64,000 nucleotides of DNA, taken from the IMG/VR virus record IMGVR_UViG_3300015606_001334, positions 128,001 through 192,000 of that record; one strand, given 5' to 3'. A program made the position numbers and the translations under genes. This DNA is from a virus. Lineage: Duplodnaviria > Caudoviricetes. Of the stretch, positions 8,483 through 21,747 are shown one piece after another. The first letter of the stretch is position 1. Each line of letters begins with the position of its first letter. The notes beneath the pieces are model-generated. The model was not told the origin of the DNA and did not search any database. It saw only the letters and a list, made by a program, of their open reading frames with translations.

Positions 8483-8504
8483 ATAGTCAATCATTACAAT
8501 TGAC

Positions 8505-8649: not shown

Positions 8650-8652
8650 ATT

Positions 8653-9057: not shown

Positions 9058-9064
9058 GAATTAC

Positions 9065-9346: not shown

Positions 9347-9430
9347 TTTTAACTCCTTGTTATGATTTACTACAAGGAGAATTATATTTCAATTTTCAAT
9401 TTTTGTAAACTGAAATTGAAAATTTGTTTT

Positions 9431-9558
9431 TGGTTGAGGCGGAAGGAATCGAACCTTCTCTAGTCGGATATGAGTCGAGATAACCATCCACGAGCGGCGT
9501 ATCTCTACGCAAAAGTTGCAGGCGATGTTTTCCTGTGCTGCCAGTACACTACGCCTCA
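9431..9558 (-). ncRNA. tRNA(CAT)-like body with Y-RNA-like module before the anticodon hairpin
   Basis: TGAGGCG/CGCCTCA-A-CCA; CTTTTGCGTA-GAGA-TACGC-C-G...GGTTATC, then CTCATAT loop and T-arm. Confidence 0.8.
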
Positions 9559-10097
9559 ATTGAACTACAATTATCAAAATGCCATCTCATCATGACATTT
9601 CTTGCACCCTCTTTACCGCAATGAGGACACTTGATCTTTTCCCTGATTTTACCAAGGTTTTTCTTACCACCGGATGAACAATTAGGATGCTGACTAATTT
9701 TCTTTTTCGTTTCCATTGGCATTTCAAATTTTCCATTCGGACCATTTTTAATGCCGCCAATACGAGAAAAATAATCTTCACCGTACTTCTTTTTCATTGT
9801 TTCTTTTCGTTTATGTCCATCTTCATTCCATCCACCTAACGTTTCAGGAATTAGATTTGCCCAGAGTTCTGACTTAACTATGTTATTGTCATCACTAAAC
9901 TGACGGGCAATTCTTGCACATTCTTCGCGATCCTCGTAGGATCCAATAACTTCAGTAGAAACATCGTTACCAAATTCGTTAAGATGCTTACACCAGTTTT
10001 TACCTGATCCACGGTATTTCATTGGATCATGGGTAGTCTTTCCGAAATACTTAAGACCTGTTTTATTATGGGTCTTAACGTAAAGAAAGATCATCAA
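9549..10097 (-). CDS. GIY-YIG-like homing endonuclease with C-terminal Zn ribbon
   Basis: FLYVKTHNKTGLKYFGKT, YRGSG, CPHC. Confidence 0.8.
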   Translation of the reverse strand: MMIFLYVKTHNKTGLKYFGKTTHDPMKYRGSGKNWCKHLNEFGNDVSTEVIGSYEDREECARIARQFSDDNNIVKSELWANLIPETLGGWNEDGHKRKETMKKKYGEDYFSRIGGIKNGPNGKFEMPMETKKKISQHPNCSSGGKKNLGKIREKIKCPHCGKEGARNVMMRWHFDNCSSIEA

Positions 10098-10411
10098 TTA
10101 ATTCCCATCTTCTTTACTAGCAAAACGTCTTGTAGATGCTCAAGCGATTCGAATGCATCCATCAATGTCAAAGCCTTTTCAACTGTGTTGTTACGACGAC
10201 GCATTTTGCGAAGTTCACTAATAGTATCTTCTTCGTCCTCGTCAATAAATGCTTTTTCGAAATGCTCAAAAATTCTATCTACACATGCAGCTTCAGATCC
10301 GAATACTTCCATGTTTTCGAATATGTCGTCATCGGCAAATTGACCATTGTTAAGGTCTAGCACGATGATCCAAACATCGCCAGCTGATTCAAAAAGAGTT
10401 TGAAGTCTCAT
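10094..10411 (-). CDS. hypothetical acidic protein, late
   Basis: AATAAATA upstream; MRLQTLFE. Confidence 0.65.
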   Translation of the reverse strand: MRLQTLFESAGDVWIIVLDLNNGQFADDDIFENMEVFGSEAACVDRIFEHFEKAFIDEDEEDTISELRKMRRRNNTVEKALTLMDAFESLEHLQDVLLVKKMGIN

Positions 10412-10443
10412 TTTACACCTCTTAAAGAGGTTATTTATTACTT

Positions 10444-10623
10444 TGGTACCCCAAGTAGGATTCGAACCTACGACCTATCGGTTAAATACCGATTGCTCTA
10501 CGTTTTTGGGCTGGCTTTATTACCTACTTTGACGTCATTTTCGGAAACCAAAGACAGCTTAAACGAAAGACTTTGACGAGTTAGCTAATCTCGCCGTTTC
10601 CTTTGCCACTGAGCTATTAGGGT
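10444..10623 (-). ncRNA. tRNA-like RNA (Lys TTT?) with ~100-nt insertion in D-loop
   Basis: GCTCAGTGG-[insert]-TAGAGC; anticodon loop TATTTAA; T-arm; A-CCA. Confidence 0.75.
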
Positions 10624-10751
10624 TGGTGCCCCGACCCGGGATCGAACCGGGATGACCGAAGTCGACAGATTTTCTTAAGCGGGCTCAGTCACTAAGTTTC
10701 AGAACCCGCTTCGTGAAAGTCTGTTGCGTCTACCAATTTCGCCATCGGGGC
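10624..10751 (-). ncRNA. tRNA-Leu body with hairpin insertion in anticodon loop (possible intron)
   Basis: Leu D-loop and variable arm, CCA; AAGCGGGTTC/GAGCCCGCTT helix inside the loop. Confidence 0.8.
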
Positions 10752-11024
10752 ATTAAAAAGCTAAGCTAAGAGTGATAGTGATTTCAATCTTCTTGTGTTC
10801 ACGTGCATCGTCAGGCTTATTCAACTCTTTGTGTTCAATAGCTTTATCAATAACTTCAGAAAGATCCTTACGGTTCTGACCTGATTTTGACTTATCTACC
10901 TTTTCTAGGTTGCCATAAATTTTCATGATTTCCTCTACTACTACTGCTTTTAAAGTAGTATTTATCGGACATAGACAAAAATCAAGAAAAAATAGGTGAA
11001 AAAGTCATTTGTTATCAATTACTT

Positions 11025-11133
11025 ATTGTTACTAAAGGCATATGTCGAAAGTAACAATTGACTTAAGACATGTATCTAAAGGCATATGCCTTTAGTAACA
11101 ATTTGACCATAAGGCATATGCCTTATGGTCAAA
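11025..11133 (+). repeat. cluster of nested palindromes (AAGGCATATG x3)
   Basis: Perfect 32-bp palindrome 11102-11133, 20-bp palindrome 11076-11095, inverted repeat 11025-11042/11085-11102. Confidence 0.85.
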
Positions 11134-11167
11134 ACTGTTGAGGAAGCGTTGCACTTCCTCTGCTGGA

Positions 11168-12064
11168 TTACTTGATCGATACCGGTGCCAGAGCTCGGGA
11201 GAGACTAGCTTCACCGCGACCATAAACTTCAGGGCGATAATTTGCAACCGTGTCGGTACGAGCAGTGGTCAACAGTTGATTGGTGATTTGCTTTGCACTT
11301 GCACCAACGAACTTACTTCCGAGGATCGCAGCATAACCATCGATGATCGGGGCTGCGAAGGAAGTTCCAGCAAGGTTAGTCGTCGTGCTAACAACGCCAA
11401 CCGAAAGAAACTTGTTTTGAACATTTACGTCAGAACCTGCGACGTTGGAGTAGCTGGTCATCGAAGCCTTGCTAGCAGTCGTTCCGTTCTTGTTGAGAGC
11501 GCCTGCAAAGATGGTCGTTTGACCACTGATCAGTGCAGATGCGAGGAAATCCTTGGTGCCGTTCTTGGTCGTTTGACCAACTGCAACGCTATCGTTACCT
11601 GCAGCCTTGACAACAATGGCAGTACCATTTTGGGCTGCTGCGATGATCGACTTTTCAGTTGCGTTGGTGATGATGTACTTTTGGTCGATCGTAGTGGGTG
11701 CGAACAGACCGTAACTTGCGTTGACGATGTTCAGCTTACCAGGTTCCAGATTGATCGCAGAACCATTCATATAACCAGTGGTGCTGATCTTCGCTTCAGG
11801 GGCAACCAAACTTGCTTCTTGAGAAACCCAGAAACCGTGACCCTTGACTTCGATGCTGTTGGTAAGACGACCAACGATCAGAGAGCGGTTGGAGAAATCA
11901 TCGACAACCAAAATGTTGGTACCTTGGCCCTTGTAACCCTGCGACCATGCAGACTTGACATCAGCATGTTCCCAGTTGGACCAGTAAGTGGGTTCGACAG
12001 CTTGAACAGAGAGGGAAGTAACTGCCAGAGCGATCATCGTGAGGGACTTATTCAGGGAGGTCAT
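11168..12064 (-). CDS. secreted subtilisin-like (S8) serine protease
   Basis: Signal peptide; ILVVDD, HG, AAGN, GTSFAAP catalytic motifs. Confidence 0.9.
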   Translation of the reverse strand: MTSLNKSLTMIALAVTSLSVQAVEPTYWSNWEHADVKSAWSQGYKGQGTNILVVDDFSNRSLIVGRLTNSIEVKGHGFWVSQEASLVAPEAKISTTGYMNGSAINLEPGKLNIVNASYGLFAPTTIDQKYIITNATEKSIIAAAQNGTAIVVKAAGNDSVAVGQTTKNGTKDFLASALISGQTTIFAGALNKNGTTASKASMTSYSNVAGSDVNVQNKFLSVGVVSTTTNLAGTSFAAPIIDGYAAILGSKFVGASAKQITNQLLTTARTDTVANYRPEVYGRGEASLSRALAPVSIK

Positions 12065-12136
12065 GGCTTTTCCTTTCGTTTGAATGACTACCACAATTGA
12101 AATTATATCAAAATTTCGGGAAATGTAAACAAATTT

Positions 12137-12700
12137 TCAAAAAGAATATTTGAATTGAACGCTGATAGTTTTGTAATTTACAGGGCGCTCATTCAAGTTG
12201 TACTTGAGAGTTTCAGAAGGTTGAAGCTCAGTTGCAGCCAACCGACAGTTGACTTCTTGAACTCCACCAATCTCGCCATAATCAGCAATACAGGACTTTT
12301 CCCGCAAGCGACCTCCAAATGTATAAAAACCATTCATGGAAATCGTAGCTTGCTTGTTGAAACTATGGATATAAACTGCGCCGAGCTTGAAGCTCGGATC
12401 AATTGTGTACTTAGGCGCCTTTTCACCCGTCGAAAATCCCCAAAGAATACCGAACTCCTTAGAGACTTGAGTCACATAGTCGACCTTAACATCTGTCCAC
12501 TTGGACGTATACCACTTATCAAATTTAATTTGGGAGCCAGTAGCAGATTCATAACCTGTAAAACTGGAAAGGCTGTGTGCCTTTGAGGAGAGAGGGGATC
12601 CTTGCTGGATCCCAATCAGGTAAGTATCATCGAAAAAGTCGAAGGCATTCGCATTAAACGATACCACCAAAAGCATTCCAATAATTGACTTACGCATCAT
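12137..12700 (-). CDS. exported, outer-membrane beta-rich protein
   Basis: Signal peptide ANA-F, alternating beta pattern, C-terminal YSF. Confidence 0.6.
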   Translation of the reverse strand: MMRKSIIGMLLVVSFNANAFDFFDDTYLIGIQQGSPLSSKAHSLSSFTGYESATGSQIKFDKWYTSKWTDVKVDYVTQVSKEFGILWGFSTGEKAPKYTIDPSFKLGAVYIHSFNKQATISMNGFYTFGGRLREKSCIADYGEIGGVQEVNCRLAATELQPSETLKYNLNERPVNYKTISVQFKYSF

Positions 12701-12758
12701 GATAATTCTCCGTCTATGATTGAATTATATCACAAACCGAAAGAATGTAAACAAAATT

Positions 12759-12834
12759 TGGAGCGGGCAGCGAGTCTCGAACTCGCGACCTTCTGCTTGG
12801 CAAGCAGATGTTCTACCAACTGAACTATGCCCGC
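12759..12834 (-). tRNA. tRNA-Gly(GCC)
   Basis: Cloverleaf, loop TTGCCAA, U-CCA. Confidence 0.95.
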
Positions 12835-13010
12835 GTATAAGCTGTTGTTTTACTGCCTAGGAGGTCAAATCTCCCATGGATATGTACTCGTTCGGTCATG
12901 ACTCCGACTATCCTACATAACTCTAACCTTTCAATCAATAGTTTCCTAGGACAATTGATAACTCTGGCTAGCAAGGTGTTCCCACTGAAGGGTCACTATA
13001 CAACAACTTA

Positions 13011-13152
13011 AGGTCTCCCTGGATGGACTCGAACCATCGGCCCCCATAATTCCGCAGCTTAAGATGAGTTGCTACCCATCTCCGAAAATTCCATTTCGAT
13101 TTGGTCCTTTACCATGAGCGGTGGAGAGCTCTACCAACTGAGCTACAGGAAG
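13011..13152 (-). ncRNA. tRNA-like RNA with ~70-nt structured anticodon-arm expansion
   Basis: Intact acceptor, D and T arms; ends A-CCT. Confidence 0.75.
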
Positions 13153-13154
13153 AT

Positions 13155-13514
13155 TTACATTTGCGAAGAAACCCACCTTCGGACTTCTTCAATCTTGAAC
13201 GGCTTAACGAAGTATCGATCGGCCTGTCTTTCTACTAAAGCTAGAATATTTTGCTCTTCTGGATCTTTTCCAGACATGAGAGCTATCTTAACGTCATCAA
13301 AATCCTTAAAGGACTTTATTGCGGCGAGTGTTTGATAGCCATTCATTTTGGGCATCATCAGATCAAGCAGGATCACCTTTGGTTTTACTTGGCATAAGAT
13401 TTCTAATGCTTCCAATCCATCTTTAGCCTGGATCACCTCATACTGCTTCTCAAGTATTGCTTGTAGTAATCTGCGAACATGCGGATTATCGTCTATGATT
13501 AGGACCGTTCCCAT
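13155..13514 (-). CDS. single-domain response regulator (receiver)
   Basis: VLIIDD, ILLDLMMPKMNG, FVKPF; start MGTVL with AGGA RBS. Confidence 0.9.
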   Translation of the reverse strand: MGTVLIIDDNPHVRRLLQAILEKQYEVIQAKDGLEALEILCQVKPKVILLDLMMPKMNGYQTLAAIKSFKDFDDVKIALMSGKDPEEQNILALVERQADRYFVKPFKIEEVRRWVSSQM

Positions 13515-13531
13515 AATATTTCCTATTGGCT

Positions 13532-13616
13532 TGGTGCCCAGGGTGGGACTCGAACCCACACGCCTTTCGGCACTGGCTTCTAAGACCAGCGCGTCTACCA
13601 ATTCCGCCACCTGGGC
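13532..13616 (-). tRNA. tRNA-Leu(TAG)
   Basis: Class II cloverleaf, loop CTTAGAA. Confidence 0.95.
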
Positions 13617-13716
13617 ATTTGATGGTATCAACTAACTTTTCGATCGCATTGTCCGTCTCTCCTATGCTCGAATACCTAAAGTACGGACTTTCTATCATGA
13701 CATCGTTTCAACCATC

Positions 13717-13792
13717 TGGTGGGACTTGACGGGTTCGAACCGCCGACCCTCTCCTTGTAAGGGAGACGCTCTACCAACTGAGCTAAAGTCCC
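13717..13792 (-). tRNA. tRNA-Val(TAC)
   Basis: Cloverleaf, loop CTTACAA. Confidence 0.95.
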
Positions 13793-13912
13793 AAGATTTA
13801 GAACTTTTCCAAGCGTTACCAAGGATTCTCTTCGAGGATTCTCCACATACCCGTTAATAGATATGCTTCAAATTGTTCTACCCCTAGTTGGGAATCTACC
13901 CAACACGGATAC

Positions 13913-13985
13913 TGGAGCGGGCGACGAGATTCGAACTCGCCTGTTCCGGCTTGGAAGGCCAGACGTTCTCCAGTTGACCGCCCGC
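13913..13985 (-). tRNA. tRNA-Gly(TCC), shortened D-arm
   Basis: GCGGGCG acceptor, loop CTTCCAA, U-CCA. Confidence 0.8.
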
Positions 13986-13990
13986 ATAAG

Positions 13991-14096
13991 ACTAACAAAA
14001 GTAGAAATTGACTAAAGTTGCATCCAGCATTCAAGAGGAGAATCGAACTCCTAACTCCATTTTCGCAGAATAGATAACCAATTTCAAGCGGTTAGC
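13991..14096 (-). ncRNA. YrlA-like Y RNA (T-arm, then D-like loop)
   Basis: GCTAAC-C-G / CTTTTGTTAGT, GGTTATC, AGGAG-TTCGATT-CTCCT. Confidence 0.8.
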
Positions 14097-14098
14097 TT

Positions 14099-14174
14099 TG
14101 GCTCTGTAGGGTGGGCTCGAACCACCGACCGACGGATTAACAGTCCGTTGCTCTACCAACTGAGCTACTACAGA
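14099..14174 (-). tRNA. tRNA-Asn(GTT)
   Basis: Loop CTGTTAA, G-CCA. Confidence 0.95.
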
Positions 14175-14211
14175 ATAGAAAGGAACTTTGTTAAGAGTTC
14201 CTTTTTGTTAA

Positions 14212-14481
14212 TTAAGCGCTTTCAGAGCCGCTCTTAACGAATGCATCTAGCGACTTTTGAGCTGCTTCGCTAAATGGGGTGACTTCGATTACTTGAGACC
14301 AAGTAACTGCACCAAGATCAACAGATTCACCAACTGCAACGGTGACTTCGTCGAATGGATAAGAAGTCTTATCAGCTTCGTCGACTACTGGACCGTCGCC
14401 GTTTGCGACGTTGTAAACCTTACCAGACTTTTTGAATTGAACCTTGACTGGATTTTGTGCTTCGTTTTTGAAAACAGACAT
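14212..14481 (-). CDS. hypothetical protein
   Basis: AGGAG RBS, start MSVFKN, terminator hairpin downstream. Confidence 0.7.
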   Translation of the reverse strand: MSVFKNEAQNPVKVQFKKSGKVYNVANGDGPVVDEADKTSYPFDEVTVAVGESVDLGAVTWSQVIEVTPFSEAAQKSLDAFVKSGSESA

Positions 14482-14554
14482 TTTATTTCTCCTATAAGAA
14501 AACAACATGTTGTGGGTAACCAACAATGCTATTTATATTTTTCGGAGATTCATT

Positions 14555-14630
14555 TGGTGCCCCAGGACTAGAATTGAACTGTCGACCCCTTCCTTACAAG
14601 GGAAGTGCTCTACCACTGAGCTACAAGGGC
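14555..14630 (-). tRNA. tRNA-Thr(TGT)
   Basis: Loop CTTGTAA. Confidence 0.92.
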
Positions 14631-14706
14631 ATTTGCGATTTAAACCTTGAAGGCCTCCATTTCTGGACGTTACTACAAACCTTAAGATGACGCATGAGTT
14701 ATTTAT

Positions 14707-14791
14707 TGGTGCCCATCGCCGGACTCGAACCGGCACTCCTTTCGGAAGTAGATTTTGAGTCTACCGCGTCTACCAATTCCGCCAGACGGGC
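14707..14791 (-). tRNA. tRNA-Leu(CAA)
   Basis: Loop CTCAAAA, variable arm. Confidence 0.95.
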
Positions 14792-14923
14792 AAGGCGTTT
14801 ACTTAACCGTATGATCCAAGATGCCATCCTTCAAAGGTGGCCTATGTCAGTCACGATTTCTACGGTCTTCTCTGACTCAGCTGTCATACTCACTGCAGAA
14901 TTTTGTATGACAAACAAGTAAAC

Positions 14924-14998
14924 TGGTGCCCAAGGTTGGAATCGAACCTACGACCTCTTTCGTACCAAGAAAGCGTTCTACCACTGAACTACGAGGGC
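14924..14998 (-). tRNA. tRNA-Thr(GGT)
   Basis: Loop TTGGTAC. Confidence 0.92.
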
Positions 14999-15008
14999 AT
15001 AAAATGTT

Positions 15009-15095
15009 TGGTGCTCTAGGAGGGACTCGAACCCTCACGTCCTTTCGGACACAACGACCTCAACGTTGCGCGTCTACCAATTCCGCCACCAGAGC
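15009..15095 (-). tRNA. tRNA-Leu(GAG)
   Basis: Loop TTGAGGT, variable arm. Confidence 0.95.
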
Positions 15096-15099
15096 ATTT

Positions 15100-15202
15100 T
15101 GGCCCATCGCGAAGGATTTGAACCTTCATTTAACCTGGACGGAATCGAACCGTCTCGTTGGGATTCGCGCGAATAGTACCCAGGGAACCAACCCACGATG
15201 GA
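15100..15202 (-). ncRNA. tRNA-like RNA with two T-arms
   Basis: GACGG-TTCGATT-CCGTC and GAAGG-TTCAAAT-CCTTC inside a TCCATCG/CGATGGG helix with CCA. Confidence 0.65.
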
Positions 15203-15516
15203 TGGTGGAAACTGGCGAGGGGCTCATTCCCCACAACCTTCCAATCACGAAGTCTTATTAAGCTACAACACTCCACTTAATGGACTGGCCGGTCCAAGAA
15301 GCTTCATCATGTTGGGAGGACTTGTTTCCTCCACCTCGGCGTCTTCTGAGCTATAATAATTTATTAGAGCTACCACCTTGGAGCGCTCTCGAATGCATGG
15401 TATCCAGCCCCTACATTCTACACTCTTCTGCTTTAGACTCCGTGACCTACTCAGTACCAATGGCTGGCCCATTGTACTTTTATCCCGAAGAACGGATATA
15501 ATCAGTCACAGTTTCC
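15203..15516 (-). ncRNA. ~314-nt structured RNA with acceptor-like stem and CCA
   Basis: GGAAACTG/CAGTTTCC-A-CCA; multiple internal helices. Confidence 0.65.
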
Positions 15517-15594
15517 GGCGCTGAAGGTAGGATTCGAACCTACAACCCCCACACAATGAGGCAGGAGCTCTTACCAAACGAGACTTACATCAGC
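15516..15594 (-). tRNA. atypical tRNA (CAT-containing 8-nt loop)
   Basis: T-arm intact; D and anticodon arms irregular; ends G-CCG. Confidence 0.55.
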
Positions 15595-15715
15595 AAAATC
15601 GAAAGGTATCAGTTACCAGGCTGATCTTTATTCATTAGTTCAGCATCTCTCGCATCCACTTTTTCAGGGGAGAGCAACCTTCCTAACTATTCGCCTAAAT
15701 TTCTTAGGACCTTTC

Positions 15716-15800
15716 TGGTGCCCTGGGAGGGACTCGAACCCACACGCCTTGCGGCGCCAGAACCTAAATCTGGTGCGTCTACCAATTTCGCCACCAGGGC
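15716..15800 (-). tRNA. tRNA-Leu(TAG)
   Basis: Loop TTTAGGT. Confidence 0.95.
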
Positions 15801-15876
15801 AATTCATTATGGCTAACTTCGGATCCTTGGCCTTCGGCGTTCTAGTAGTTAGCAACGTACCCGTCATAATGAAATT

Positions 15877-15962
15877 TGGAGCGCAGGGTGTGATTCGAAC
15901 ACACGTGGGATTTCTCCGAGAGGTTTGCAATCTCCCGCCTTCGACCGCTTGGCTACCTGCGC
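15877..15962 (-). tRNA. tRNA-Cys(GCA) with long variable arm
   Basis: Loop TTGCAAA, U73-CCA, extra GGA-GAAA-TCC arm. Confidence 0.85.
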
Positions 15963-16243
15963 AAAGTGTACGTGGTGACTAGCCTTAAGTATCATGCCTG
16001 ATACAATTGGTGCCGTACGAACCATTCGTAATTTTTACATCTTCGATCAGATGGCTACCATCAGCGGTTTGCCTTTCTGCCAGTCGAATAACCCAGAGAT
16101 TGGTCAAATGGGCTTCTTTTGATTATCGATTCACGAAGAGAAAAACGGCTTTCATACGATGCAAGCAGCACGCCTAGCGACTCAGTCCTAGGAGAGGTCC
16201 CTTAACCTGGAAATCTAGGAGATTCACTTAGTCAAAATGAATC

Positions 16244-16321
16244 TGGCCTCGCGAGAGGGATTCGAACCCCCGACCCGCTGCTTAGAAGGCAGCTGCTCTA
16301 GTCCAACTGAGCTACCGCGAG
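16244..16321 (-). tRNA. tRNA-Arg(TCT)
   Basis: Loop CTTCTAA. Confidence 0.95.
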
Positions 16322-16503
16322 AAAAACAATTCTTAGCCCTGGAATTACTTATGAGAATCCGCATAGTTCCAGTTTAACGGCCCTCACTAAGAATTGGGCG
16401 CATATGGAGATCATTGAAATCGTCTATCACCGTGCTTAGTTTCGTACTGAAGCGTACGTCTTTAGACTTATCGGCACCGTCACCCTTCCGGCTCATATGC
16501 GTA

Positions 16504-16765
16504 GTCATTGACAAAATTTAGATATCGGATATTCAGAGAAAAGCGAACTTAACTCCTAGTTAGATGGGTCAGTCACCTAACAACCGCCTACTTATTCTTA
16601 GTAGGAAATATCGACGTTATTCTATGTCGACAATAATCAAATTGTAATCGAGGAGGAGCAAGCTCCTTGTTCCCTCTGTTGTCCGTCAATTTGAAAAAAT
16701 AGACAACATCTCAATTAAGGACGATCATTAGCTATTAAGATAACCAATATCTCGCGGTCAATGAT
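16504..16765 (-). ncRNA. Y-RNA-like ncRNA (long form)
   Basis: CATTGAC-C-G / TTTTGTCAATG, AGATATTGG/CCGATATCT, GTTATC. Confidence 0.75.
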
Positions 16766-16841
16766 TGGTGGAACTGAAGGGAATCGAACCCTCAACATCT
16801 AGCTTGCAAAGCTAGCGCTCTCCCAATTGAGCTACAGCCCC
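16766..16841 (-). tRNA. tRNA-Ala(TGC)
   Basis: G3:U70, loop TTTGCAA. Confidence 0.95.
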
Positions 16842-17014
16842 AAAGTAAATGATATTTAATGTTCCAGCTTTTGGCATACTCTCTTAGGCTTCAGACCCAG
16901 GGATGTCAGCCCTTTTGCGCCTGCCAGGTTTCTTGCATGAACTTTTGACAGATTTTCTCATGCTCAAGGAATCCACCCAAACCAGCGTGTAACTTAGAGG
17001 GCTTCCATATCATT

Positions 17015-17100
17015 TGGTGCACCAGGTAGGATTCGAACCTACTCACCCAGAGGGAACAGATTTACAGTCTGCCGTAACTCTCCAACTTTACCGCTAGTGC
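17015..17100 (-). tRNA. tRNA-Tyr(GTA)
   Basis: Loop CTGTAAA, variable arm. Confidence 0.92.
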
Positions 17101-17106
17101 AATACA

Positions 17107-17224
17107 ATCAAACAAAGATAAAAATCGAATTGCTGCGCCCAATTTCTTGCAGCTCATAAATCCGAAGACCTATGATGGAGTCGAACCATTCATCTGATAG
17201 ATAATCGATTTTCGACGGTTTGAT
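17107..17224 (-). ncRNA. YrlA-like Y RNA (complete permuted tRNA domain)
   Basis: Bulged-C helix, ATTATC, T-arm, acceptor-like stem closed by TTCG, D-like arm. Confidence 0.85.
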
Positions 17225-17310
17225 TGGTGGTCTATCTAGGTAACGATCCTAGCCAACCCGAAGGTATCAGTTTTACAGACTGCGCGGCGTCCTTAGCCGA
17301 ATACTAGACC
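17225..17310 (-). tRNA. atypical tRNA-Tyr(GTA)
   Basis: Loop CTGTAAA; non-canonical T-loop ATCGTTA. Confidence 0.75.
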
Positions 17311-17317
17311 TTGAAAC

Positions 17318-17467
17318 TTAAAAATGCTCTTTTGTTACTTGATACTCAGGAGAAGGATATTCTTCCTTCTTAGCTTTCAAAAGCTCATTTGCTTCTGCTA
17401 CAGTGAGACACTTACGAGTAAAAACCGTAGTGTATCCCTTCATAACCACAATGTGCCAAAACTTCAT
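17318..17467 (-). CDS. hypothetical protein (49 aa)
   Basis: GGGAG RBS, start MKFWH. Confidence 0.65.
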   Translation of the reverse strand: MKFWHIVVMKGYTTVFTRKCLTVAEANELLKAKKEEYPSPEYQVTKEHF

Positions 17468-17488
17468 GCTTACTTCTCCCTTAATAAT

Positions 17489-17562
17489 TGGTTGCGGGCA
17501 GGGGAATCGAACCACCTTCCCAACTGGCTTATGAGACCAGCGTCAGACCTTCTGAACCCGCA
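17489..17562 (-). tRNA. tRNA-Met/Ile2(CAT), short D-arm
   Basis: Loop CTCATAA, A-CCA. Confidence 0.8.
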
Positions 17563-17569
17563 ATTGAGA

Positions 17570-17644
17570 GATAAACAAAGGAGTGGAAATTGGGGATTGG
17601 ATCAAAGTGGAAGTTTGAGATAACCAATTTCCTTTCGGTTTATC
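17570..17644 (-). ncRNA. minimal Y-RNA-like RNA with pyrimidine-rich loop
   Basis: GATAAAC-C-G / CTTTGTTTATC, GGAAATTGG/CCAATTTCC, GTTATC. Confidence 0.8.
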
Positions 17645-17735
17645 TGGCGGAGGCGGTGAGATTCGAACTCACGGACCTTTTTAGGGATCGGTAGTTTTCA
17701 AGACTACTGCGTTAAACCAGCTCTGCCACGCCTCC
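17645..17735 (-). tRNA. tRNA-Ser(TGA)
   Basis: Loop CTTGAAA, long variable arm, G-CCA. Confidence 0.95.
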
Positions 17736-18068
17736 ATTTTTACGATTCCTCGACTTGTAAGTACTCAACTGTGAATCACAATTGCTACAGACAAATCTTA
17801 GATTTTCTAATCTATTGTCGTTGTTAACACCGTTGATGTGGCCAAGAATTAATGGCATAGGTTTCCCTTGCCATTCAGGACCAATTCCACAGCATGCGCA
17901 ACGATATTCGATTAACTTTCCATCTAATATTCGACTCTTTACATGATGTCTAGCGAGAGTCGAATTTTCAGAAAAAACTTCTTCATCCGTCTTTCTTATC
18001 GACCGATGATACTCTGTTAATCCTGGTTTCTTTCCTTTATTCCAAGGGACACTTCCTTTTGATGCCAT
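17712..18068 (-). CDS. HNH endonuclease
   Basis: CACCG...HINGVNNDNRLENLRFVCSNC. Confidence 0.85.
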   Translation of the reverse strand: MASKGSVPWNKGKKPGLTEYHRSIRKTDEEVFSENSTLARHHVKSRILDGKLIEYRCACCGIGPEWQGKPMPLILGHINGVNNDNRLENLRFVCSNCDSQLSTYKSRNRKNGGVAELV

Positions 18069-18128
18069 AATCTGCTAAAAGTTATTTCAACAGATGTATT
18101 TATTGCACCAGTTTGTGAAACAATAGGG

Positions 18129-18192
18129 AATCAAACAAAAAGCGATGATCGACGCTTTTCCAATAAGATAACCAATCATCAACGGTTTGATT
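18129..18192 (-). ncRNA. minimal (64 nt) Y-RNA-like RNA
   Basis: AATCAAAC-C-G / TTTTTGTTTGATT, GATGATTGG/TCGATCATC, GTTATC. Confidence 0.8.
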
Positions 18193-18283
18193 TGGCTCCG
18201 GCCTCAGGGATCGAACCTGATTGAAACCTTATGAGGGCCTCCTGGTTAACAGCCAGTTGCTCTACCAATTGAGCTACGCCGGA
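18193..18283 (-). tRNA. tRNA-Asn(GTT) with extra CAT-loop arm
   Basis: Loop CTGTTAA; variable arm GGCC-CTCATAA-GGTT. Confidence 0.85.
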
Positions 18284-18290
18284 ATTGTAA

Positions 18291-18400
18291 ACTAACAAAA
18301 ATAGATATCGAGTAATGCGGCACCCAGCTTCCAAATCGGGAATCGAACCCAATCCTTCGTTTTTTCCATAAAAAGAGATAACCGATATCAAGCGGTTAGT
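18291..18400 (-). ncRNA. YrlA-like Y RNA
   Basis: ACTAAC-C-G / TTTTTGTTAGT, GGTTATC, T-arm TTGGG-TTCGATT-CCCGA. Confidence 0.8.
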
Positions 18401-18476
18401 TGGTTGCGGGAGTTGGACTTGCACCAACCTTGGCCAGCTTATGAGACTGGTGATGAACTTTCTCCTCTATCCCGCA
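18401..18476 (-). tRNA. atypical tRNA-Met/Ile2(CAT)
   Basis: Loop CTCATAA, T-loop TGCAAGT. Confidence 0.75.
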
Positions 18477-18483
18477 ATCAAAA

Positions 18484-18599
18484 GATAAACAAAACTAGTA
18501 ATCGATGAACCTCTTTCGAGGGTGAAGGGCTTGAACCTTCTAACTTGTGGATGATTAGTCCTCTCGTATTATCCGATAACCAATTACTCACGGTTTATC
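18484..18599 (-). ncRNA. Y-RNA-like RNA with T-arm; paralogue of 749-873
   Basis: Same helix and GAGGACTAAT...TCCAC segment. Confidence 0.8.
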
Positions 18600-18982
18600 A
18601 ATTACTTCTTCCTTTTCCTCCTTTAGCTGACATATTCCTATGCCATTCTTTGAACTCTTCAGGAGAAAGAGAATTCTTCATTTTTGTTATGTATGAAATT
18701 CGTTTATTCTGACGATAATCATCTCTCAAATTATCTGAGTATGTTCCCCAATACAAATGATTTGGATTTGAGCATTTACCATTTCCACAGCCATGACAAC
18801 AAATAACTTTCTTACCTGTCGGTATTGTGGTTTTAAGATGGTGTGCTAATAACCCTCTAAATTCTACAGAGCTATATCCACCAATTTCAATACAAGGCTC
18901 GTCAAGTTTAAGGTGCTTCTGTCTATCTTCTACAGGAAGCTCAATATACTCAAGAATTTCTACGAAACTGGTAGGAGACATG
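18598..18982 (-). CDS. HNH-type (Zn-binding) homing endonuclease
   Basis: CCHGCGNGKCSNPNHLYWGT..DN; nearest ATG lies inside tRNA-Lys. Confidence 0.7.
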
Positions 18983-19043
18983 GGACTCGAACCCACAACC
19001 TCGACATTAAAAGTGTCTTGCTCTACCATTGAGCTAATCTCCC
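18969..19043 (-). tRNA. tRNA-Lys(TTT)
   Basis: Loop CTTTTAA. Confidence 0.92.
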
Positions 19044-19055
19044 ATTAAATGAATC

Positions 19056-19130
19056 TGGTGGTCGATGCTGGATTTGAACCAGCGACCTATCGCTTATCAA
19101 GCGAGTGCTCTACCACTGAGCTAATCGACC
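19056..19130 (-). tRNA. tRNA-Ile(GAT)
   Basis: Loop TTGATAA. Confidence 0.95.
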
Positions 19131-19169
19131 AGCAGGAATGACTGCAATCATTCCTTTACTACTATGTAC

Positions 19170-19298
19170 CGGTGCAGTCTGAAGGAATCGAACCTCCGTC
19201 TTCGCCTTGTAATGGATAACCATTTTCAAGCGGTTCATTTTCATGAACAAATTCAGAAAACGATGTTTATCGCTGTTCTACCACTGAACTAAGACTGC
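19170..19298 (-). ncRNA. tRNA-Val(TAC)-like body with Y-RNA-like module
   Basis: TTTGTTCAT-GAAA-ATGAAC-C-G...GGTTATC, then CC-ATTACAA-GG; ends A-CCG. Confidence 0.8.
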
Positions 19299-19353
19299 AA
19301 AAATGAATCTGGCCTAAATACCATTAGGTTGGTACAACTTTACCGCAGATTCA

Positions 19354-19482
19354 AGGTGGAGAGTAGAGGATTCGAACCTCTGACCACGTGCTTAACAGGC
19401 AGATAACCAATTTCGGCCGGTTTGAGCAAACAAACAAAGAGTGAAATCGACATTTACGTGCTCTACCACTGAGCTAACTCCC
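19354..19482 (-). ncRNA. tRNA(GTT)-like body with Y-RNA-like module in anticodon stem
   Basis: ACG-[insert ending GGTTATC]-TGC-CTGTTAA-GCACGT; ends A-CCT. Confidence 0.8.
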
Positions 19483-19563
19483 CAACAAAATCAGCAAGAT
19501 GACACCACTTGGTATACGTGGCTAATTAAGCATTATGTCCCCACAAATGCTCATCTTCGCTGA

Positions 19564-19639
19564 AGGTCCGCCGCGAGGGATTTGCACCCACTACCTGAGG
19601 TTTATGAGACCTCTGCTCCTCTACTCAAGCTGCCGGCGG
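19564..19639 (-). tRNA. atypical tRNA-Met/Ile2(CAT)
   Basis: GAGGT-CTCATAA-ACCTC; T-loop TGCAAAT; no CCA. Confidence 0.7.
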
Positions 19640-19921
19640 ATCGATGAGCTTCATAATCAAACCTACCAACTTTACGGGAAGGAGGGTTGAATGTCTTCCA
19701 GTTGCCTCGCGGCAAGTTGGTTCTTCCAGACTTCTGAAGCTCATTGATAACGATATCAGAGACTTGATCGTTAGTTAAGAGATTTTCACTGAAGCTTGTC
19801 TTTCGACTGCTACGAGCTCCGAGTACTCTTATCTGATTTGGCTTTTCCGAATTGTTAAAGAATCAACTACTTACTGAAGAATTTGAATTGTATCTCATTC
19901 ATCAGCTTTTGTAAACTGCTA

Positions 19922-20103
19922 AATTTGTTTTGTTCTGACTGCTGGACTCGAACCAGCACTACGTTCCTGGCCGCAGCCAGTGCATTACCAGTTATGCTAC
20001 TCGGGGCGGACCCCAAGGTTGGATTCGAACCAACATTTGAACAACCGCAGAATCAAAGATGCGGCGCGTCTACCAATTTCGCCAAGTCAGAACAAAACAA
20101 ATT
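19922..20103 (-). ncRNA. double-elbow fused tRNA mimic
   Basis: D1-AC1-T1-hairpin-D2-AC2-T2 closed by a 19-bp perfect helix. Confidence 0.8.
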
Positions 20104-20113
20104 GTTAAAGAAC

Positions 20114-20217
20114 AACAACTTAGGTGAGGCGTCTAGGATTCGAACCTAGGAAGTAAACCCTCATTCGTGGATGGCGAACCTGACCCGCCATTATAACCAC
20201 GCCTCAACTAAGTTGTT
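20114..20217 (-). ncRNA. tRNA-like RNA with sealed, extended acceptor stem
   Basis: T-arm CTAGG-TTCGAAT-CCTAG; AACAACTTAG.TGAGGCG / CGCCTCA.CTAAGTTGTT. Confidence 0.65.
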
Positions 20218-20244
20218 TAAAGATCGTTTGCTGCAAGTGAAGTT

Positions 20245-20277
20245 GAATTATATCTTCAACTTCAGGTTTTGTAAACT
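20245..20277 (-). promoter_or_regulatory. early promoter
   Basis: GTTTACA...TATAAT. Confidence 0.75.
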
Positions 20278-20313
20278 GTTTCTTCAACAAATTTTCAAAA
20301 CCTTTACTACATT

Positions 20314-20399
20314 TGGCGGAGACGGTGGGAATCGAACCCACTGAACCTTTCGGTCCTACACCTTAGCAGGGTGCTGCATTACCGGCCTGCCCCGTCTCC
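20314..20399 (-). tRNA. tRNA-Ser(GCT)
   Basis: Loop CTGCTAA, variable arm, G-CCA. Confidence 0.92.
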
Positions 20400-21055
20400 A
20401 ATTTTCTTCCTGCTTTCCAACCTTGATTTTCCCAAGATTGAAGTTCATCTTTCTTTATCTTCTTCGCTTCGGAACCATTGTTTATCCAACAAGTACCAAA
20501 TTGAGAATTCTTTTCACCTCTTACTGCTTCCTTCATCGAAGAACTAATTTTTATCTTAGTTTCCTCTTTATGGGTTTTTCCTGTCCAATCTCCAGAAGGA
20601 ACCTTCCCATACTTTTTCATCTTACCTTCTATGCCACGACGATGCCGCTCTTTTGCGGCCTCTGATCCTTTACTAAATATCTCAGCTCTTTTACTTCCAC
20701 CAGCTGAAGACCTAGCGATTTGAATCCTGTTTCGCTCTACATCATCTGAATTGATATGATCCCAACCACCTTCTCCACCAAACTTCAAGTTCATGCAGAG
20801 CGGGTGTTTCAACATCTCCTCGTTTACTACTTCAGCTTCTCTCTTCTTGAGTTCTTCTCTTGAAGGTAGAAACTCTAAAATCTCAAACTTGTGGTTTTCC
20901 AACCCATATTTCCGGATCGAATAACCTAACCTCTTTCCACTTCCTACATAACCATCTTCCAAGTTATCCGTTGAGTGCATCCCAACGTAGAACTTTTCAT
21001 TCAGAAGATTTGTGGTCCTATAAATGAAGTGGTACTTCTTTTGTTTCCTTGGCAT
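20363..21055 (-). CDS. GIY-YIG homing endonuclease, paralogue of 4459-5124
   Basis: FIYRTTNLLNEKFYVGMHSTDNL; GKTHKEETK; TATAAATA upstream. Confidence 0.9.
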   Translation of the reverse strand: MPRKQKKYHFIYRTTNLLNEKFYVGMHSTDNLEDGYVGSGKRLGYSIRKYGLENHKFEILEFLPSREELKKREAEVVNEEMLKHPLCMNLKFGGEGGWDHINSDDVERNRIQIARSSAGGSKRAEIFSKGSEAAKERHRRGIEGKMKKYGKVPSGDWTGKTHKEETKIKISSSMKEAVRGEKNSQFGTCWINNGSEAKKIKKDELQSWENQGWKAGRKLETGQAGNAAPC

Positions 21056-21115
21056 TCATTTTGCTCCAAACTCCTATAAGTTTATTTATAGAAGGAGGAA
21101 CAAAATGTTACCGGG

Positions 21116-21198
21116 CGGAGAGTAAGGGACTCGAACCCTTAAGACGTTTCCGTCGCTACCTTTCCAGGGTAGTGCCATACCAATTAGGCGAACTCTCC
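21116..21198 (-). tRNA. tRNA-Ser(GGA), CCA not encoded
   Basis: Loop CTGGAAA; 3' end G-CCCGG. Confidence 0.92.
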
Positions 21199-21249
21199 AA
21201 CAAAGTAAGATGAATTATAAACTAAACTTCTTACTTCGTAAACTACTTT

Positions 21250-21441
21250 TTAAATCTTTCCAAACCGTGATTTGAAATCTCCCAAACAACGATCTGCCCA
21301 ACGAGTGGCTGCATCAGCATTGGTGCAATTGTCAGCTCTTGCAACATTGATCCACGCTTGTAGCCAAACATGTTCTTCTTTTGAAAGAACCGGAATCTGA
21401 ACTTGTGGTTCATTCTTTTCCAATCGGATACCTTCTGTCAT
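21250..21441 (-). CDS. hypothetical protein
   Basis: ORF with RBS and early promoter. Confidence 0.65.
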   Translation of the reverse strand: MTEGIRLEKNEPQVQIPVLSKEEHVWLQAWINVARADNCTNADAATRWADRCLGDFKSRFGKI

Positions 21442-21747
21442 CTTGAACTTCCCTTAAAGAAAGAGAAATTTTATATCAATGCTGCACTTTTGTAAACTAT
21501 AAAACAATTTTGGGAATCTTTTTACGGATTCCCAAATCTAAACTATTCAAACGAAACGTGCGTTGTAACTTAGACTGGGAATTCTCCACCTCTATATCCA
21601 TATGATTTGGACACGAGCAGAGACTTGGCATTATTTGCCAAGGTTGTGCTAATGTTTAAAATCGAAGATATAGAAGACATGATTCCTCAGGGTTAAAAGT
21701 TAAGTTGCTATAATTCTATATATAGTTTCGGTCAGAATTTTTGTTTT

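What the first reader, a model, noticed from the sequence alone, without database searches (positions are those of the whole stretch)
15203..15516. ~314-nt unknown ncRNA with tRNA-like acceptor end
Seen: GGAAACTG/CAGTTTCC-A-CCA, a hairpin in the T-arm position, a long-range GTCACGGAGTCT/AGACTTCGTGAT helix, a CCAGCC loop complementary to GGCTGG, and several more hairpins. It is tmRNA-sized but has no G3:U70 pair or recognisable tag. Inference: a new large structured RNA class matured like a tRNA.
Basis: partly seen in the sequence, partly recalled or inferred. Interest (0 to 1): 0.7.

Follow-up and report, generated by a model that had tools for sequence, protein, structure and literature searches.

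The report
Phage tRNA-shaped RNA with giant arm
Among the tRNA genes of a 360-kb jumbo phage lies a conserved 314-base non-coding RNA that folds like a tRNA but carries a 220-base ornate domain where the small variable arm should be; it matches no catalogued RNA family and its job is unknown.

Summary
Window 15203-15516, minus strand, encodes a 314-nt structured RNA inside a roughly 35-gene tRNA array of a 359,550-bp jumbo phage.

- **Homologues:** twelve further distinct copies (84-97% identical) were recovered from short metagenome contigs, all in tRNA arrays on the tRNA strand.
- **Structure:** on the 13-sequence alignment, 91 pairs are 98.7% paired. 25 pairs show compensatory double changes, against 10.9±1.9 in shuffles and 2-5 in slid controls.
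- **Not coding:** the internal 69-aa ORF is broken in 8 of 13 copies and shows no codon-position bias.
- **No known family:** Rfam 15 and ARAGORN give no match.

It is a full class-II cloverleaf: an 8-bp acceptor-like stem, a D-like arm, a 5-bp/7-nt anticodon-like arm with invariant CCAG, and a 6-bp T-like arm stacked on the acceptor stem. A ~218-nt domain replaces the variable arm. That domain has a five-way junction, a consensus K-turn and invariant loops.

The ACCA tail is present in only 5 of 12 copies. The chassis lacks U33, a TΨC-type loop and G18G19, so it is not a decoder.

Best reading: a stable cargo RNA cut out of the array transcript by tRNA-processing enzymes. The cargo's function is unknown. 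This scan has noted other expanded tRNA-shaped phage RNAs on other DNA; this family is new.

The parts
15203..15516 (-). Whole 314-nt RNA gene (RNA position p = 15517 - window coordinate)
   Evidence: Homology in 12 other distinct copies starts exactly at G1 and ends at the 3' tail. CM R1 scores 385 bits on it.
15509..15516 (-). P1 5' strand GGAAACUG (acceptor-like stem, 8 bp)
   Evidence: Pairs with 15207-15214. Invariant and 100% paired.
15207..15214 (-). P1 3' strand CAGUUUCC
15203..15206 (-). 3' tail ACCA (discriminator + CCA in this phage)
   Evidence: ACCA in 5 of 12 complete copies, other tails elsewhere. The next tRNA-like gene starts 1 nt downstream.
15476..15506 (-). D-like arm: ACN/NGU stem (11-13/39-41) plus hairpin UAUCC/GGAUA (19-23/32-36) with invariant loop GUUCUUCG
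   Evidence: Pair 13:39 is AU:7, UA:3, CG:2. Three pairs of the inner hairpin have double changes.
15458..15474 (-). Anticodon-like arm: 5-bp stem (43-47/55-59) and 7-nt loop G-R-C-C-A-G-M with invariant CCAG and no U33
   Evidence: Two pairs with double changes; loop columns.
15236..15455 (-). Cargo domain in the variable-arm position (RNA 62-281, ~218 nt), closed by ACU/GGU (62-64/279-281)
   Evidence: Alifold consensus. It contains the longest invariant blocks. It is skipped as a 212-nt deletion when R1 aligns to a real tRNA-Leu.
15435..15447 (-). Long-range helix, 5' strand GGUCACGGAGUCU (70-82)
   Evidence: Pairs with 15243-15255 (262-274). 13 bp, 4 pairs with double changes, 98.2% paired.
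15243..15255 (-). Long-range helix, 3' strand AGACUUCGUGAUU (262-274)
15391..15418 (-). Hairpin with invariant loop GCUGGA(UA) (stem 99-108/117-126, loop 109-116)
   Evidence: Pairs 106:121 (AU:7, GC:6) and 109:118 (GC:10, AU:3) covary. The loop is complementary to the CCAG(C) loop; that pairing is untested.
15315..15332 (-). Hairpin GGAGGA/UCCUCC with loop AACAAG (185-202)
   Evidence: Invariant stem, so no covariation is possible.
15266..15314 (-). K-turn arm. C helix CAACAU/GUGUUG (203-208/246-251). Bulge GAU plus G.A, A.G, A.G (209-214 against 243-245). NC helix (215-225/232-242). Invariant loop CGGCCA (226-231).
   Evidence: Eight of nine pairs of the distal helix and two of the C helix show double changes, while the K-turn nucleotides are invariant in all 13 copies.
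15215..15234 (-). T-like arm GUGGGG/CCUCGC (283-288/297-302), 8-nt loop AAUGAGCC, abutting P1
   Evidence: Double changes at two pairs (alignment columns 291:310 and 293:308); pair 294:307 also varies (GU:9, AU:2, GC:1), changing on one side only. 100% paired.
15517..15594 (-). Upstream tRNA-like gene (CAU anticodon loop) ending N73-CC directly against G1 (context, not part of the RNA)
   Evidence: Rfam tRNA 29.2 bits. The T-arm/acceptor/N/CC|G1 junction is the same in all 12 contigs with upstream sequence, with 6 different upstream genes.
15103..15201 (-). Downstream 99-nt tRNA-like RNA beginning 1 nt after the ACCA tail (context)
   Evidence: Weak tRNA match. The same neighbour follows in L011, L013 and L015.

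Best explanation
The locus encodes a ~310-nt stable non-coding RNA, co-transcribed with the phage's tRNAs.

Anatomy. Its outer part is a degenerate class-II tRNA cloverleaf:
- an 8-bp acceptor-like stem, then a 2-nt linker;
- an elongated D-like arm, then a 1-nt linker;
- a 5-bp/7-nt anticodon-like arm;
- a T-like arm of 6 bp stacked directly on the acceptor stem.

In place of the variable arm sits a ~218-nt domain. It has a 13+4-bp stalk, a five-way junction, a consensus K-turn arm ending in an invariant CGGCCA loop, and an invariant GCUGGA loop.

Proposed mechanism (inferred). The tRNA-shaped chassis makes the RNA a substrate of the tRNA-processing machinery.
- RNase P cuts 5' of G1. The same cut leaves the upstream tRNA ending in N-CC.
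- A CCA-adding enzyme, one of which the phage encodes, then completes that upstream tRNA.
- The RNase P cut at the next gene's 5' end, plus trimming, sets the 3' end of this RNA.
- The compact tRNA-like fold protects the ends.

The conserved variable-arm domain is the working part. It most likely acts as a protein-binding or self-associating RNA module. The molecule does not decode codons and does not need aminoacylation.

Shown here: gene limits, non-coding nature, secondary structure, K-turn consensus, array context. Inferred: processing route, stability role of the chassis, nature of the cargo's partner.
For: - Structure: 91 pairs, 98.7% of cells paired, 25 pairs with double-sided changes against 10.9±1.9 in shuffles (0/500) and 2-5 in slid controls.
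- Stems vary more than loops and junctions: 68 of 182 paired columns vary, against 32 of 140 unpaired columns.
- Non-coding: the ORF frame is broken in 8 of 13 copies, and variable columns by codon position are 23/23/22.
- Cloverleaf: linker lengths 2, 1, 2, 1, 0. R1 aligns a tRNA-Leu of Ralstonia phage RsoM2USA arm for arm, skipping 212 nt of cargo (22.3 bits, E 2.4e-6).
- Array context: every homologue lies in a tRNA array on the tRNA strand.
- Junction: it is always T-arm/acceptor/N/CC|G1, with 6 different upstream genes.
- Transcription: there is no promoter-like or terminator-like site next to the gene on its strand.
- Phage enzymes: the phage encodes a PolyA_pol/CCA-adding-family protein.
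- Conservation: 88-97% identity, equal to that of the orthologous tRNAs, while the spacers are unalignable.
- Precedents: phage T5 has six annotated stable RNAs abutting tRNAs in its tRNA cluster. YrlA's tRNA-like module is cut by RNase P and receives CCA (PMC4201824).
Against: - No read data: neither the transcript nor its ends have been observed.
- The T-like loop (AAUGAGCC) is not a TΨC loop and the acceptor/T stack is 14 bp rather than 12. RNase P recognition is therefore assumed, not shown.
- P1 and several inner helices are invariant, so they are supported only by energy and by being paired.
- The family is narrow. It was not found in a complete 358-kb relative (49% DNA polymerase identity), in RsoM2USA, or by two exact 18-20-nt motif scans of IMG/VR.
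- No partner for the cargo has been identified, and the phage has no L7Ae-type K-turn binder.
Confidence: 0.6

Rival explanations
1. A tRNA gene interrupted by a large intron or intervening domain in the variable loop. Removal would leave a working tRNA with anticodon CCA (Trp).
For: Cloverleaf topology with a 5-bp/7-nt anticodon-like arm whose middle triplet is an invariant CCA. Other tRNAs in this array carry 45-65-nt inserts.
Against: - No group I or other intron family matched, even at E<=10.
- The loop has a purine where U33 should be. The T-like loop is not TΨC-like, the D-like loop has no GG, and the acceptor/T stack is 14 bp.
- The discriminator varies between A and U.
- The 'insert' is the best-conserved part.
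- The phage already has a canonical tRNA-Trp(CCA).
- ARAGORN rejects cargo-deleted constructs (the deletion endpoints were approximate).
Confidence: 0.04
2. A tmRNA-like or otherwise aminoacylated RNA that enters the ribosome, combining a tRNA-like part with a message-like or effector part.
For: - Its size and layout recall tmRNA: a terminal acceptor stem, a long helix and a T-like hairpin.
- The discriminator is A with CCA in this phage.
- The stretch GCUUAAUAA resembles the end of a tag frame (from my own memory of E. coli ssrA, not tested).
- The phage invests heavily in translation RNAs.
Against: - There is no G3:U70, and ARAGORN and the Rfam tmRNA models are silent here.
- The frame ending at UAAUAA is cut to 5-6 codons in 5 of 13 copies.
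- The CCA and the discriminator are not conserved.
- A 14-bp acceptor/T branch lies outside the 12-bp form of canonical and allo-tRNAs (PMC5389517). The 13-bp tRNA-Sec form is quoted from my own knowledge.
- The phage already has a two-piece tmRNA at 28013-28450.
Confidence: 0.06
3. A selfish or mobile RNA-gene cassette that spreads between phage tRNA arrays, for example with the help of the array's homing endonucleases. It would be conserved for its own propagation, not for the phage.
For: - At least 6 different upstream and 5 different downstream neighbours surround copies that are 84-97% identical.
- The boundary at CC|G1 is sharp and invariant.
- Variants show a mosaic, module-swapped pattern.
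- HNH and GIY-YIG ORFs lie in the same array.
Against: - No terminal repeats and no encoded enzyme.
- Ordinary tRNA genes of these arrays are shuffled in the same way.
- Compensatory changes keep a complex fold with invariant loops, which argues for a function of the RNA itself.
- Only one copy per genome.
Confidence: 0.08
4. A partner of the phage's Ro60 (TROVE) system: a giant Y-RNA-like or Ro-bound RNA.
For: The phage encodes a 545-aa TROVE protein. Weak YrlA-like matches and Y-like modules lie in the same array (earlier notes e1-5656157 and e1-5656176). Bacterial Y RNAs carry tRNA-like modules (PMC4201824).
Against: There is no YrlA match on this RNA at E<=10. Reading the sequence shows none of the GNCGAA-type motif that marks the bacterial Y-RNA stem. 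The stalk differs from the array's Y-like element at 17107-17224.
Confidence: 0.06
5. A small protein gene (69 aa, 15263-15472, minus strand).
For: The ORF is on the gene strand, and gene callers called it in several metagenomes.
Against: - Frameshifts or stops break it in 8 of 13 copies.
- Called products range from 37 to 69 aa.
- Substitutions are spread evenly over codon positions (23/23/22).
- Conservation is as high outside the ORF as inside it.
Confidence: 0.01

Closest known systems
Stable RNAs of the phage T5 tRNA cluster (RNAI, RNAIII, RNA1, RNA2, RNA2H, RNAIV; GenBank AY692264.1 misc_RNA features)
   Same: They are non-decoding RNAs of unknown function sitting between tRNA genes on the tRNA strand, some abutting a tRNA with no spacer. 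They are presumably released by tRNA processing. Earlier notes of this scan describe T5 RNA2 as tRNA-shaped with a folded module in one arm.
   Different: They are 103-172 nt against 314 nt here. BLAST of the region against the phage collection found no sequence similarity. Here the cargo sits in the variable-arm position and is a 218-nt multi-helix domain with a K-turn.
Class II tRNAs (Leu, Ser, Tyr), tRNA-Sec and allo-tRNAs (Mukai et al., PMC5389517)
   Same: Cloverleaf with an extra arm between the anticodon and T arms. An 8-bp acceptor stem, as in the 8/4 allo-tRNAs and bacterial tRNA-Sec. R1 aligns to a class-II tRNA-Leu.
   Different: - The extra arm is ~218 nt rather than up to ~20 nt.
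- The acceptor/T branch is 8+6 = 14 bp rather than 12 or 13.
- There is no U33, no TΨC loop and no G18G19.
- The discriminator is not conserved.
- There is no Rfam tRNA score at all.
YrlA / bacterial Y RNAs (Rfam RF02553; Chen et al. 2014, PMC4201824)
   Same: [quoted passage not shown] Such RNAs are found in phages, and the phage here encodes Ro60.
   Different: There is no Ro-binding stem motif and no RF02553 match. In YrlA the tRNA-like module sits inside the molecule; here it forms the ends.
tmRNA
   Same: A large RNA whose ends form an acceptor stem stacked on a T-like arm, with a long helix leading to a big domain.
   Different: No G3:U70, no canonical T loop, no conserved tag frame. It has D-like and anticodon-like arms, which tmRNA lacks.
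ROOL and GOLLD large ornate RNAs (from my own knowledge: phage-associated, often next to tRNA genes, shown by cryo-EM to form RNA-only multimers)
   Same: A large, highly structured phage RNA of unknown function beside tRNAs, with conserved hairpin loops, one of them palindromic (GGCC within CGGCCA).
   Different: No Rfam match to either family. It is about half the size or less, and multimerisation is pure conjecture here.

Membership tests
tRNA (Rfam RF00005) | Cloverleaf of acceptor, D, anticodon and T arms with short fixed linkers | tested here: met
   Covariation-supported helices with linkers of 2, 1, 2, 1 and 0 nt. Arm-for-arm alignment to a tRNA-Leu.
tRNA (Rfam RF00005) | Score against the family model; 7+5-bp acceptor branch; U33; TΨC-type T loop; G18G19 | tested here: not met
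   No RF00005 match on 15203-15516 even at E<=10. ARAGORN is silent. The branch is 8+6 bp, there is a purine at the U33 position, the T-like loop reads AAUGAGCC and the D-like loop reads GUUCUUCG.
tRNA (Rfam RF00005) | Aminoacylation and decoding | not testable with these tools
   Indirect evidence against: the discriminator and CCA vary among copies.
tmRNA (RF00023, RF01849, RF04321) | G3:U70 alanine identity pair, canonical T arm, conserved tag reading frame | tested here: not met
   The pair is A3:U. There are no tmRNA model or ARAGORN hits here. The candidate frame is cut short in 5 of 13 copies.
Bacterial RNase P RNA (RF00010/RF00011) | P4 pseudoknot between the conserved regions CR-I (GAGGAAAGUCC) and CR-V; match to the family model | tested here: not met
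   No match at E<=10. The only P4-like pairing would be 4 bp. G196 changes to A in 7 of 13 copies without compensation, and the next two positions are mismatches.
Group I intron (RF00028) | Match to the family model; flanking exons that make a functional RNA | tested here: not met
   No match at E<=10. The flanks would form a defective tRNA.
YrlA / Y RNA (RF02553) | Ro-binding stem with the GNCGAA(N)G motif; model match | tested here: not met
   No RF02553 match on this RNA. The motif named in PMC4201824 is absent from the sequence.
K-turn motif (structural module, not an RNA family) | C helix, 3-nt bulge, tandem G.A/A.G pairs, NC helix | tested here: met
   CAACAU-GAU-GA-A-GCUU against AAGU-G-GA-GUGUUG. 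The G.A/A.G nucleotides are invariant in all 13 copies while both flanking helices covary. The consensus is quoted from my own knowledge, and the 3D fold is not testable here.
Stable non-decoding RNAs of phage tRNA clusters (T5 type) | Non-coding, conserved, located between tRNA genes on the same strand without its own promoter or terminator | tested here: met
Stable non-decoding RNAs of phage tRNA clusters (T5 type) | Accumulates as a discrete processed RNA in infected cells | not testable with these tools

The most novel reading that the evidence does not exclude
The variable-arm domain is an autonomous RNA machine carried on a natural tRNA scaffold. One form of this idea is a self-assembling ornate RNA: a homo-oligomer held by the palindromic CGGCCA loop presented by the K-turn arm and by the GCUGGA/CCAG loops, in the manner of ROOL and GOLLD. 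The other form is a ribozyme. Either would be the first tRNA whose variable arm has been expanded into a ~220-nt functional domain.
Probability: 0.15. Interest if true: 0.85.

Novelty: new variant of a known kind. Interest (0 to 1): 0.62.

Why it matters
Phage tRNA clusters have long been known to hold stable RNAs of unknown purpose, such as those of T5. This scan keeps finding tRNA-shaped phage RNAs with swollen arms.

This is an extreme and unusually well-supported case. A complete cloverleaf carries a 218-nt, sequence-invariant, K-turn-containing domain where the variable arm should be. The phage also encodes Ro60, Y-RNA-like modules, a CCA-adding enzyme, a two-piece tmRNA and about 45 tRNAs.

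It suggests that phages use the tRNA fold as a natural expression-and-processing scaffold for unrelated RNA cargo, the same trick that RNA engineers devised for recombinant RNA. At about 100 kDa, with a firm secondary structure, it is a tractable target for cryo-EM and for partner hunting.

Its narrow distribution and the lack of a cultured host limit its immediate impact.

Tried and rejected
- **Rfam 15:** no family on this RNA at gathering score over the whole window, or at E<=10 on 15050-15700 and E<=1 on 8000-22000.
- **ARAGORN:** nothing on the window at this locus. Nothing on six cargo-deleted or D-hairpin-deleted constructs either, though my deletion endpoints were a few bases off the final helix map.
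- **Paralogues in the phage genome:** none by nhmmer, short-word BLAST or CM R1.
- **Public phage collection:** BLAST of the region against the 50,697 phage records gave no match.
- **Exact-motif scans:**
  - IMG/VR gave one chance hit in a GC-rich coding region and then nothing.
  - Genome contigs gave one chance hit.
  - The metagenome scan gave 15 hits, 5 of which contain the RNA (one is the contig already held as L006).
- **Relatives of the phage:**
  - No homologue in RsoM2USA (54% identity in the AAA protein).
  - None in IMG/VR records at 88%, 49%, 48%, 44% and 43% DNA polymerase identity, one of them a complete 358-kb genome, nor in the one IMG/VR record with a related AAA protein (45% identity).
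  - The genome-wide CM searches use a loose first filter, so weak homologues may be missed.
  - The filters-off CM search failed internally.
- **Plus-strand 73-aa ORF as a probe for more contigs:** nothing.
- **Chassis compared with the phage's own tRNAs:** the best score was 47, against a shuffled-best of 37.9±4.7 (maximum 56). No isotype of origin can be named.
- **RNase P idea:** prompted by GGAGGAAA..GUCC and GAGAGCGC look-alikes, and rejected.
- **tmRNA tag idea:** prompted by GCUUAAUAA, and rejected.
- **Extra tertiary pairs from covariation among unpaired columns:** nothing convincing. The CCAG/GCUGG/CGGCCA loops are invariant.
- **L7Ae-type K-turn binder in the phage:** none.
- **Literature searches:** nothing found on tRNA-embedded RNAs in jumbo phages or on a T4-type 'species 1' stable RNA.

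Full report
**Setting.**
- The window is bases 128001-192000 of a 359,550-bp IMG/VR virus record rated complete.
- All tRNA genes in it lie on the minus strand. Rfam finds 31 tRNA matches and a permuted tmRNA in the window.
- ARAGORN finds 45 tRNAs and the tmRNA in the whole genome.
- The phage has a T4-type DNA polymerase, RIIA, topoisomerase II and an NAD-dependent ligase.
- Its closest cultured relative by one AAA protein is the 344-kb Ralstonia phage RsoM2USA, at 54% identity.
- The finding lies between a weak tRNA-like gene (15517-15594) and a 99-nt tRNA-like gene (15103-15201).

**Observation.**
- Read on the minus strand, the 314 nt start GGAAACUG and end CAGUUUCC-ACCA.
- The single sequence folds to -106.3 kcal/mol, z = -3.66 against dinucleotide shuffles.
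- No Rfam 15 family matches it at gathering score or at E<=10, and ARAGORN reports nothing.

**Homologues.**
- The phage has no paralogue, and the public phage collection has no BLAST match.
- The internal 69-aa ORF proved a useful handle. Gene callers had called it in other assemblies, giving eight protein clusters of 37-69 aa.
- Fetching their contigs, plus one exact-motif scan of metagenome contigs, gave 12 further distinct copies at 84-97% identity.
- Judging by the record names, several come from sewage surveys; that is my inference.
- Homology starts exactly at G1 and ends at the 3' tail.
- All copies sit in tRNA arrays on the tRNA strand.

**Coding or RNA?**
- In the ORF's frame, 8 of 13 copies have stops or a 1-nt frameshift.
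- Variable columns fall 23/23/22 on codon positions 1/2/3.
- The parts outside the ORF are as conserved as those inside.
- The ORF is therefore not a gene.

By contrast, RNAalifold gives 91 pairs, 25 of them with compensatory double changes. On that structure:
- 98.7% of 1169 cells are standard pairs;
- pairs with double-sided changes number 25, against 10.9±1.9 in column shuffles (0/500) and 2-5 when partners are slid by 1-3 columns;
- the covariation score is 0.202, against 0.102 in the column shuffles and 0.028-0.050 in the slid controls.

Variation concentrates in stems: 68 of 182 paired columns vary, against 32 of 140 unpaired ones. That is the signature of a functional fold. The helices supported by double changes are:
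- the D-like arm;
- the anticodon-like arm;
- the long-range helix;
- the GCUGGA hairpin;
- the AU-rich hairpin;
- both helices of the K-turn arm;
- the T-like arm.

P1 and alignment helices 5, 7, 8, 10, 11 and 13 show no double-sided change (most are invariant) and rest on pairing alone.

**Architecture.** The outer part is a cloverleaf with tRNA-like linkers:
- P1 of 8 bp, then UG;
- a D-like arm (ACN/NGU plus a 5-bp hairpin with invariant loop GUUCUUCG), then 1 nt;
- a 5-bp stem with the 7-nt loop G-R-C-C-A-G-M, then GU;
- a huge arm closed by ACU/GGU, then 1 nt;
- a 6-bp T-like stem with an 8-nt loop that abuts P1.

The covariance model R1 supports this reading. Run on 70 kb of RsoM2USA, it hit one sequence only: a class-II tRNA-Leu. 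Every chassis arm aligned and 212 nt of cargo were deleted (22.3 bits, E 2.4e-6, rough calibration).

Sequence similarity of the chassis to any particular tRNA of the phage is not significant, so I name no isotype of origin.

The chassis is not a working tRNA:
- it has a purine at the U33 position;
- it has no TΨC-type loop and no G18G19;
- its acceptor/T branch is 14 bp, whereas canonical and allo-tRNAs keep 12 (PMC5389517);
- its discriminator varies between A and U;
- ACCA is encoded in only 5 of 12 complete copies.

The phage also has a normal tRNA-Trp(CCA).

**The cargo (RNA 62-281).**
- It opens with a purine-rich internal loop (GAGUA against RRAA). This looks sarcin-ricin-like in the copies that read GAAA, but I do not press the point.
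- A 13-bp and then a 4-bp stalk follow, leading to a five-way junction.
- One arm fits the K-turn consensus exactly, and its G.A/A.G nucleotides are invariant while both flanking helices covary. The arm ends in the invariant loop CGGCCA.
- Another hairpin presents the invariant loop GCUGGA. This is complementary to the invariant CCAG of the anticodon-like loop, and in part to CGGCC.
- With no variation in these loops, covariation cannot decide which of them pair.
- The longest invariant blocks of the whole RNA are in the junction strands of this domain. I therefore take it to be the functional part.

**Context and biogenesis (inferred).**
- In all 12 contigs with upstream sequence, a T arm, a 7-nt acceptor strand, one discriminator base and CC come immediately before G1. 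The upstream gene is one of six different tRNA-like genes.
- Downstream, the next tRNA-like gene starts 0-2 nt after the tail.
- No promoter-like or terminator-like site flanks the gene on its strand.
- One RNase P cut at G1 would therefore free this RNA's 5' end and leave the upstream tRNA with ...NCC.
- The phage encodes a PolyA_pol/CCA-adding-family enzyme that could add the missing A.
- The RNA is as conserved as the orthologous tRNAs (88-97% identity), while the spacers do not align.
- Its neighbours differ from contig to contig. The alignment is mosaic and the array holds HNH and GIY-YIG ORFs, so I read this as cassette shuffling in the arrays. Homing-endonuclease-driven exchange in phage tRNA regions is known to me from T4 SegB (my own knowledge). 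A selfish-cassette reading is kept as a rival.

**Comparison with what is known.**
- Closest in kind are the stable RNAs annotated between the tRNAs of phage T5, which are 103-172 nt and in some cases abut a tRNA with no spacer.
- YrlA is also close: its tRNA-like module is cut by RNase P and CCA-tailed in Mycobacterium smegmatis (PMC4201824).
- The phage has a TROVE/Ro60 protein and weak YrlA-like matches elsewhere in the array. This RNA has neither the Y-RNA stem motif nor a model match.
- The RNase P, group I intron and tmRNA readings were each tested and not met.
- Earlier notes of this scan describe other expanded tRNA-shaped RNAs in other phages. None shares sequence with this one.

**Distribution.** The family is narrow. 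It is absent from RsoM2USA, from a complete 358-kb relative and from four fragmentary relatives.

**Verdict.** This is a real, non-coding, strongly structured and uncatalogued RNA family: a tRNA cloverleaf carrying a ~218-nt conserved domain in the variable-arm position.
- Biogenesis by tRNA-processing enzymes is likely but unobserved.
- The function of the cargo is unknown. I favour a protein-binding or self-associating module over decoding, trans-translation, an intron or Ro60 partnership.

Noticed in passing
window 28013-28450 (-): Two-piece (permuted) tmRNA gene with tag ANDESYRVAA (Rfam tmRNA_permuted 94.6 bits; ARAGORN tmRNA*). Unusual cargo for a phage.
   Followed up: no
G000:C1:119950-120023 (outside the window): ARAGORN reports a tRNA with anticodon CUA (labelled Pyl), that is, an amber-suppressor-type tRNA. 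The phage may read TAG as sense in some genes.
   Followed up: no
G000:C1:48189-49184 (-) and 94187-94558 (-) (outside the window): The phage encodes a 545-aa TROVE/Ro60-family protein and a 382-aa PolyA_pol/CCA-adding-family protein. No L7Ae-family protein was found.
   Followed up: partly
window 8656-8770, 10627-10751, 13014-13152, 19173-19298, 19357-19483 (-): These tRNA-model matches are 115-139 nt long, that is, tRNAs carrying 45-65-nt inserts. ARAGORN misses them.
   Followed up: no
window 15103-15201 (-): A 99-nt tRNA-like RNA with a good T arm and a CCA end but long internal inserts (tRNA model 15.3 bits). The same gene follows the 314-nt RNA in contigs L011, L013 and L015.
   Followed up: partly
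window 15517-15594 (-): A weak tRNA (29.2 bits) with a CAU anticodon loop. It ends N-CC with no A, directly against the next gene. A TilS-like PP-loop protein is encoded at 30206-31156.
   Followed up: no
window 17107-17224 (-); 19967-20051, 14944-15066, 18985-19111 (-): A Y-RNA-like element with a T-arm-like hairpin, plus sub-threshold YrlA matches of 24-29 bits against a gathering score of 69.
   Followed up: partly
window 17712-18068, 18598-19029, 20363-21055 (-): These ORFs inside the tRNA array read like two HNH endonucleases and one GIY-YIG endonuclease, judged from their translations. They are likely drivers of array shuffling.
   Followed up: no
window 32700-34190, 46290-47384, 34949-36220 (-): NAD+ salvage genes (NAMPT; an NMN adenylyltransferase-Nudix fusion) and an adenylosuccinate-synthetase-like gene.
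   Followed up: no
L021:3344-3531 (+): In a related contig the gene upstream of the RNA is itself a ~180-nt RNA with a tRNA acceptor and T arm and a large internal body. It too ends N-CC against G1.
   Followed up: no
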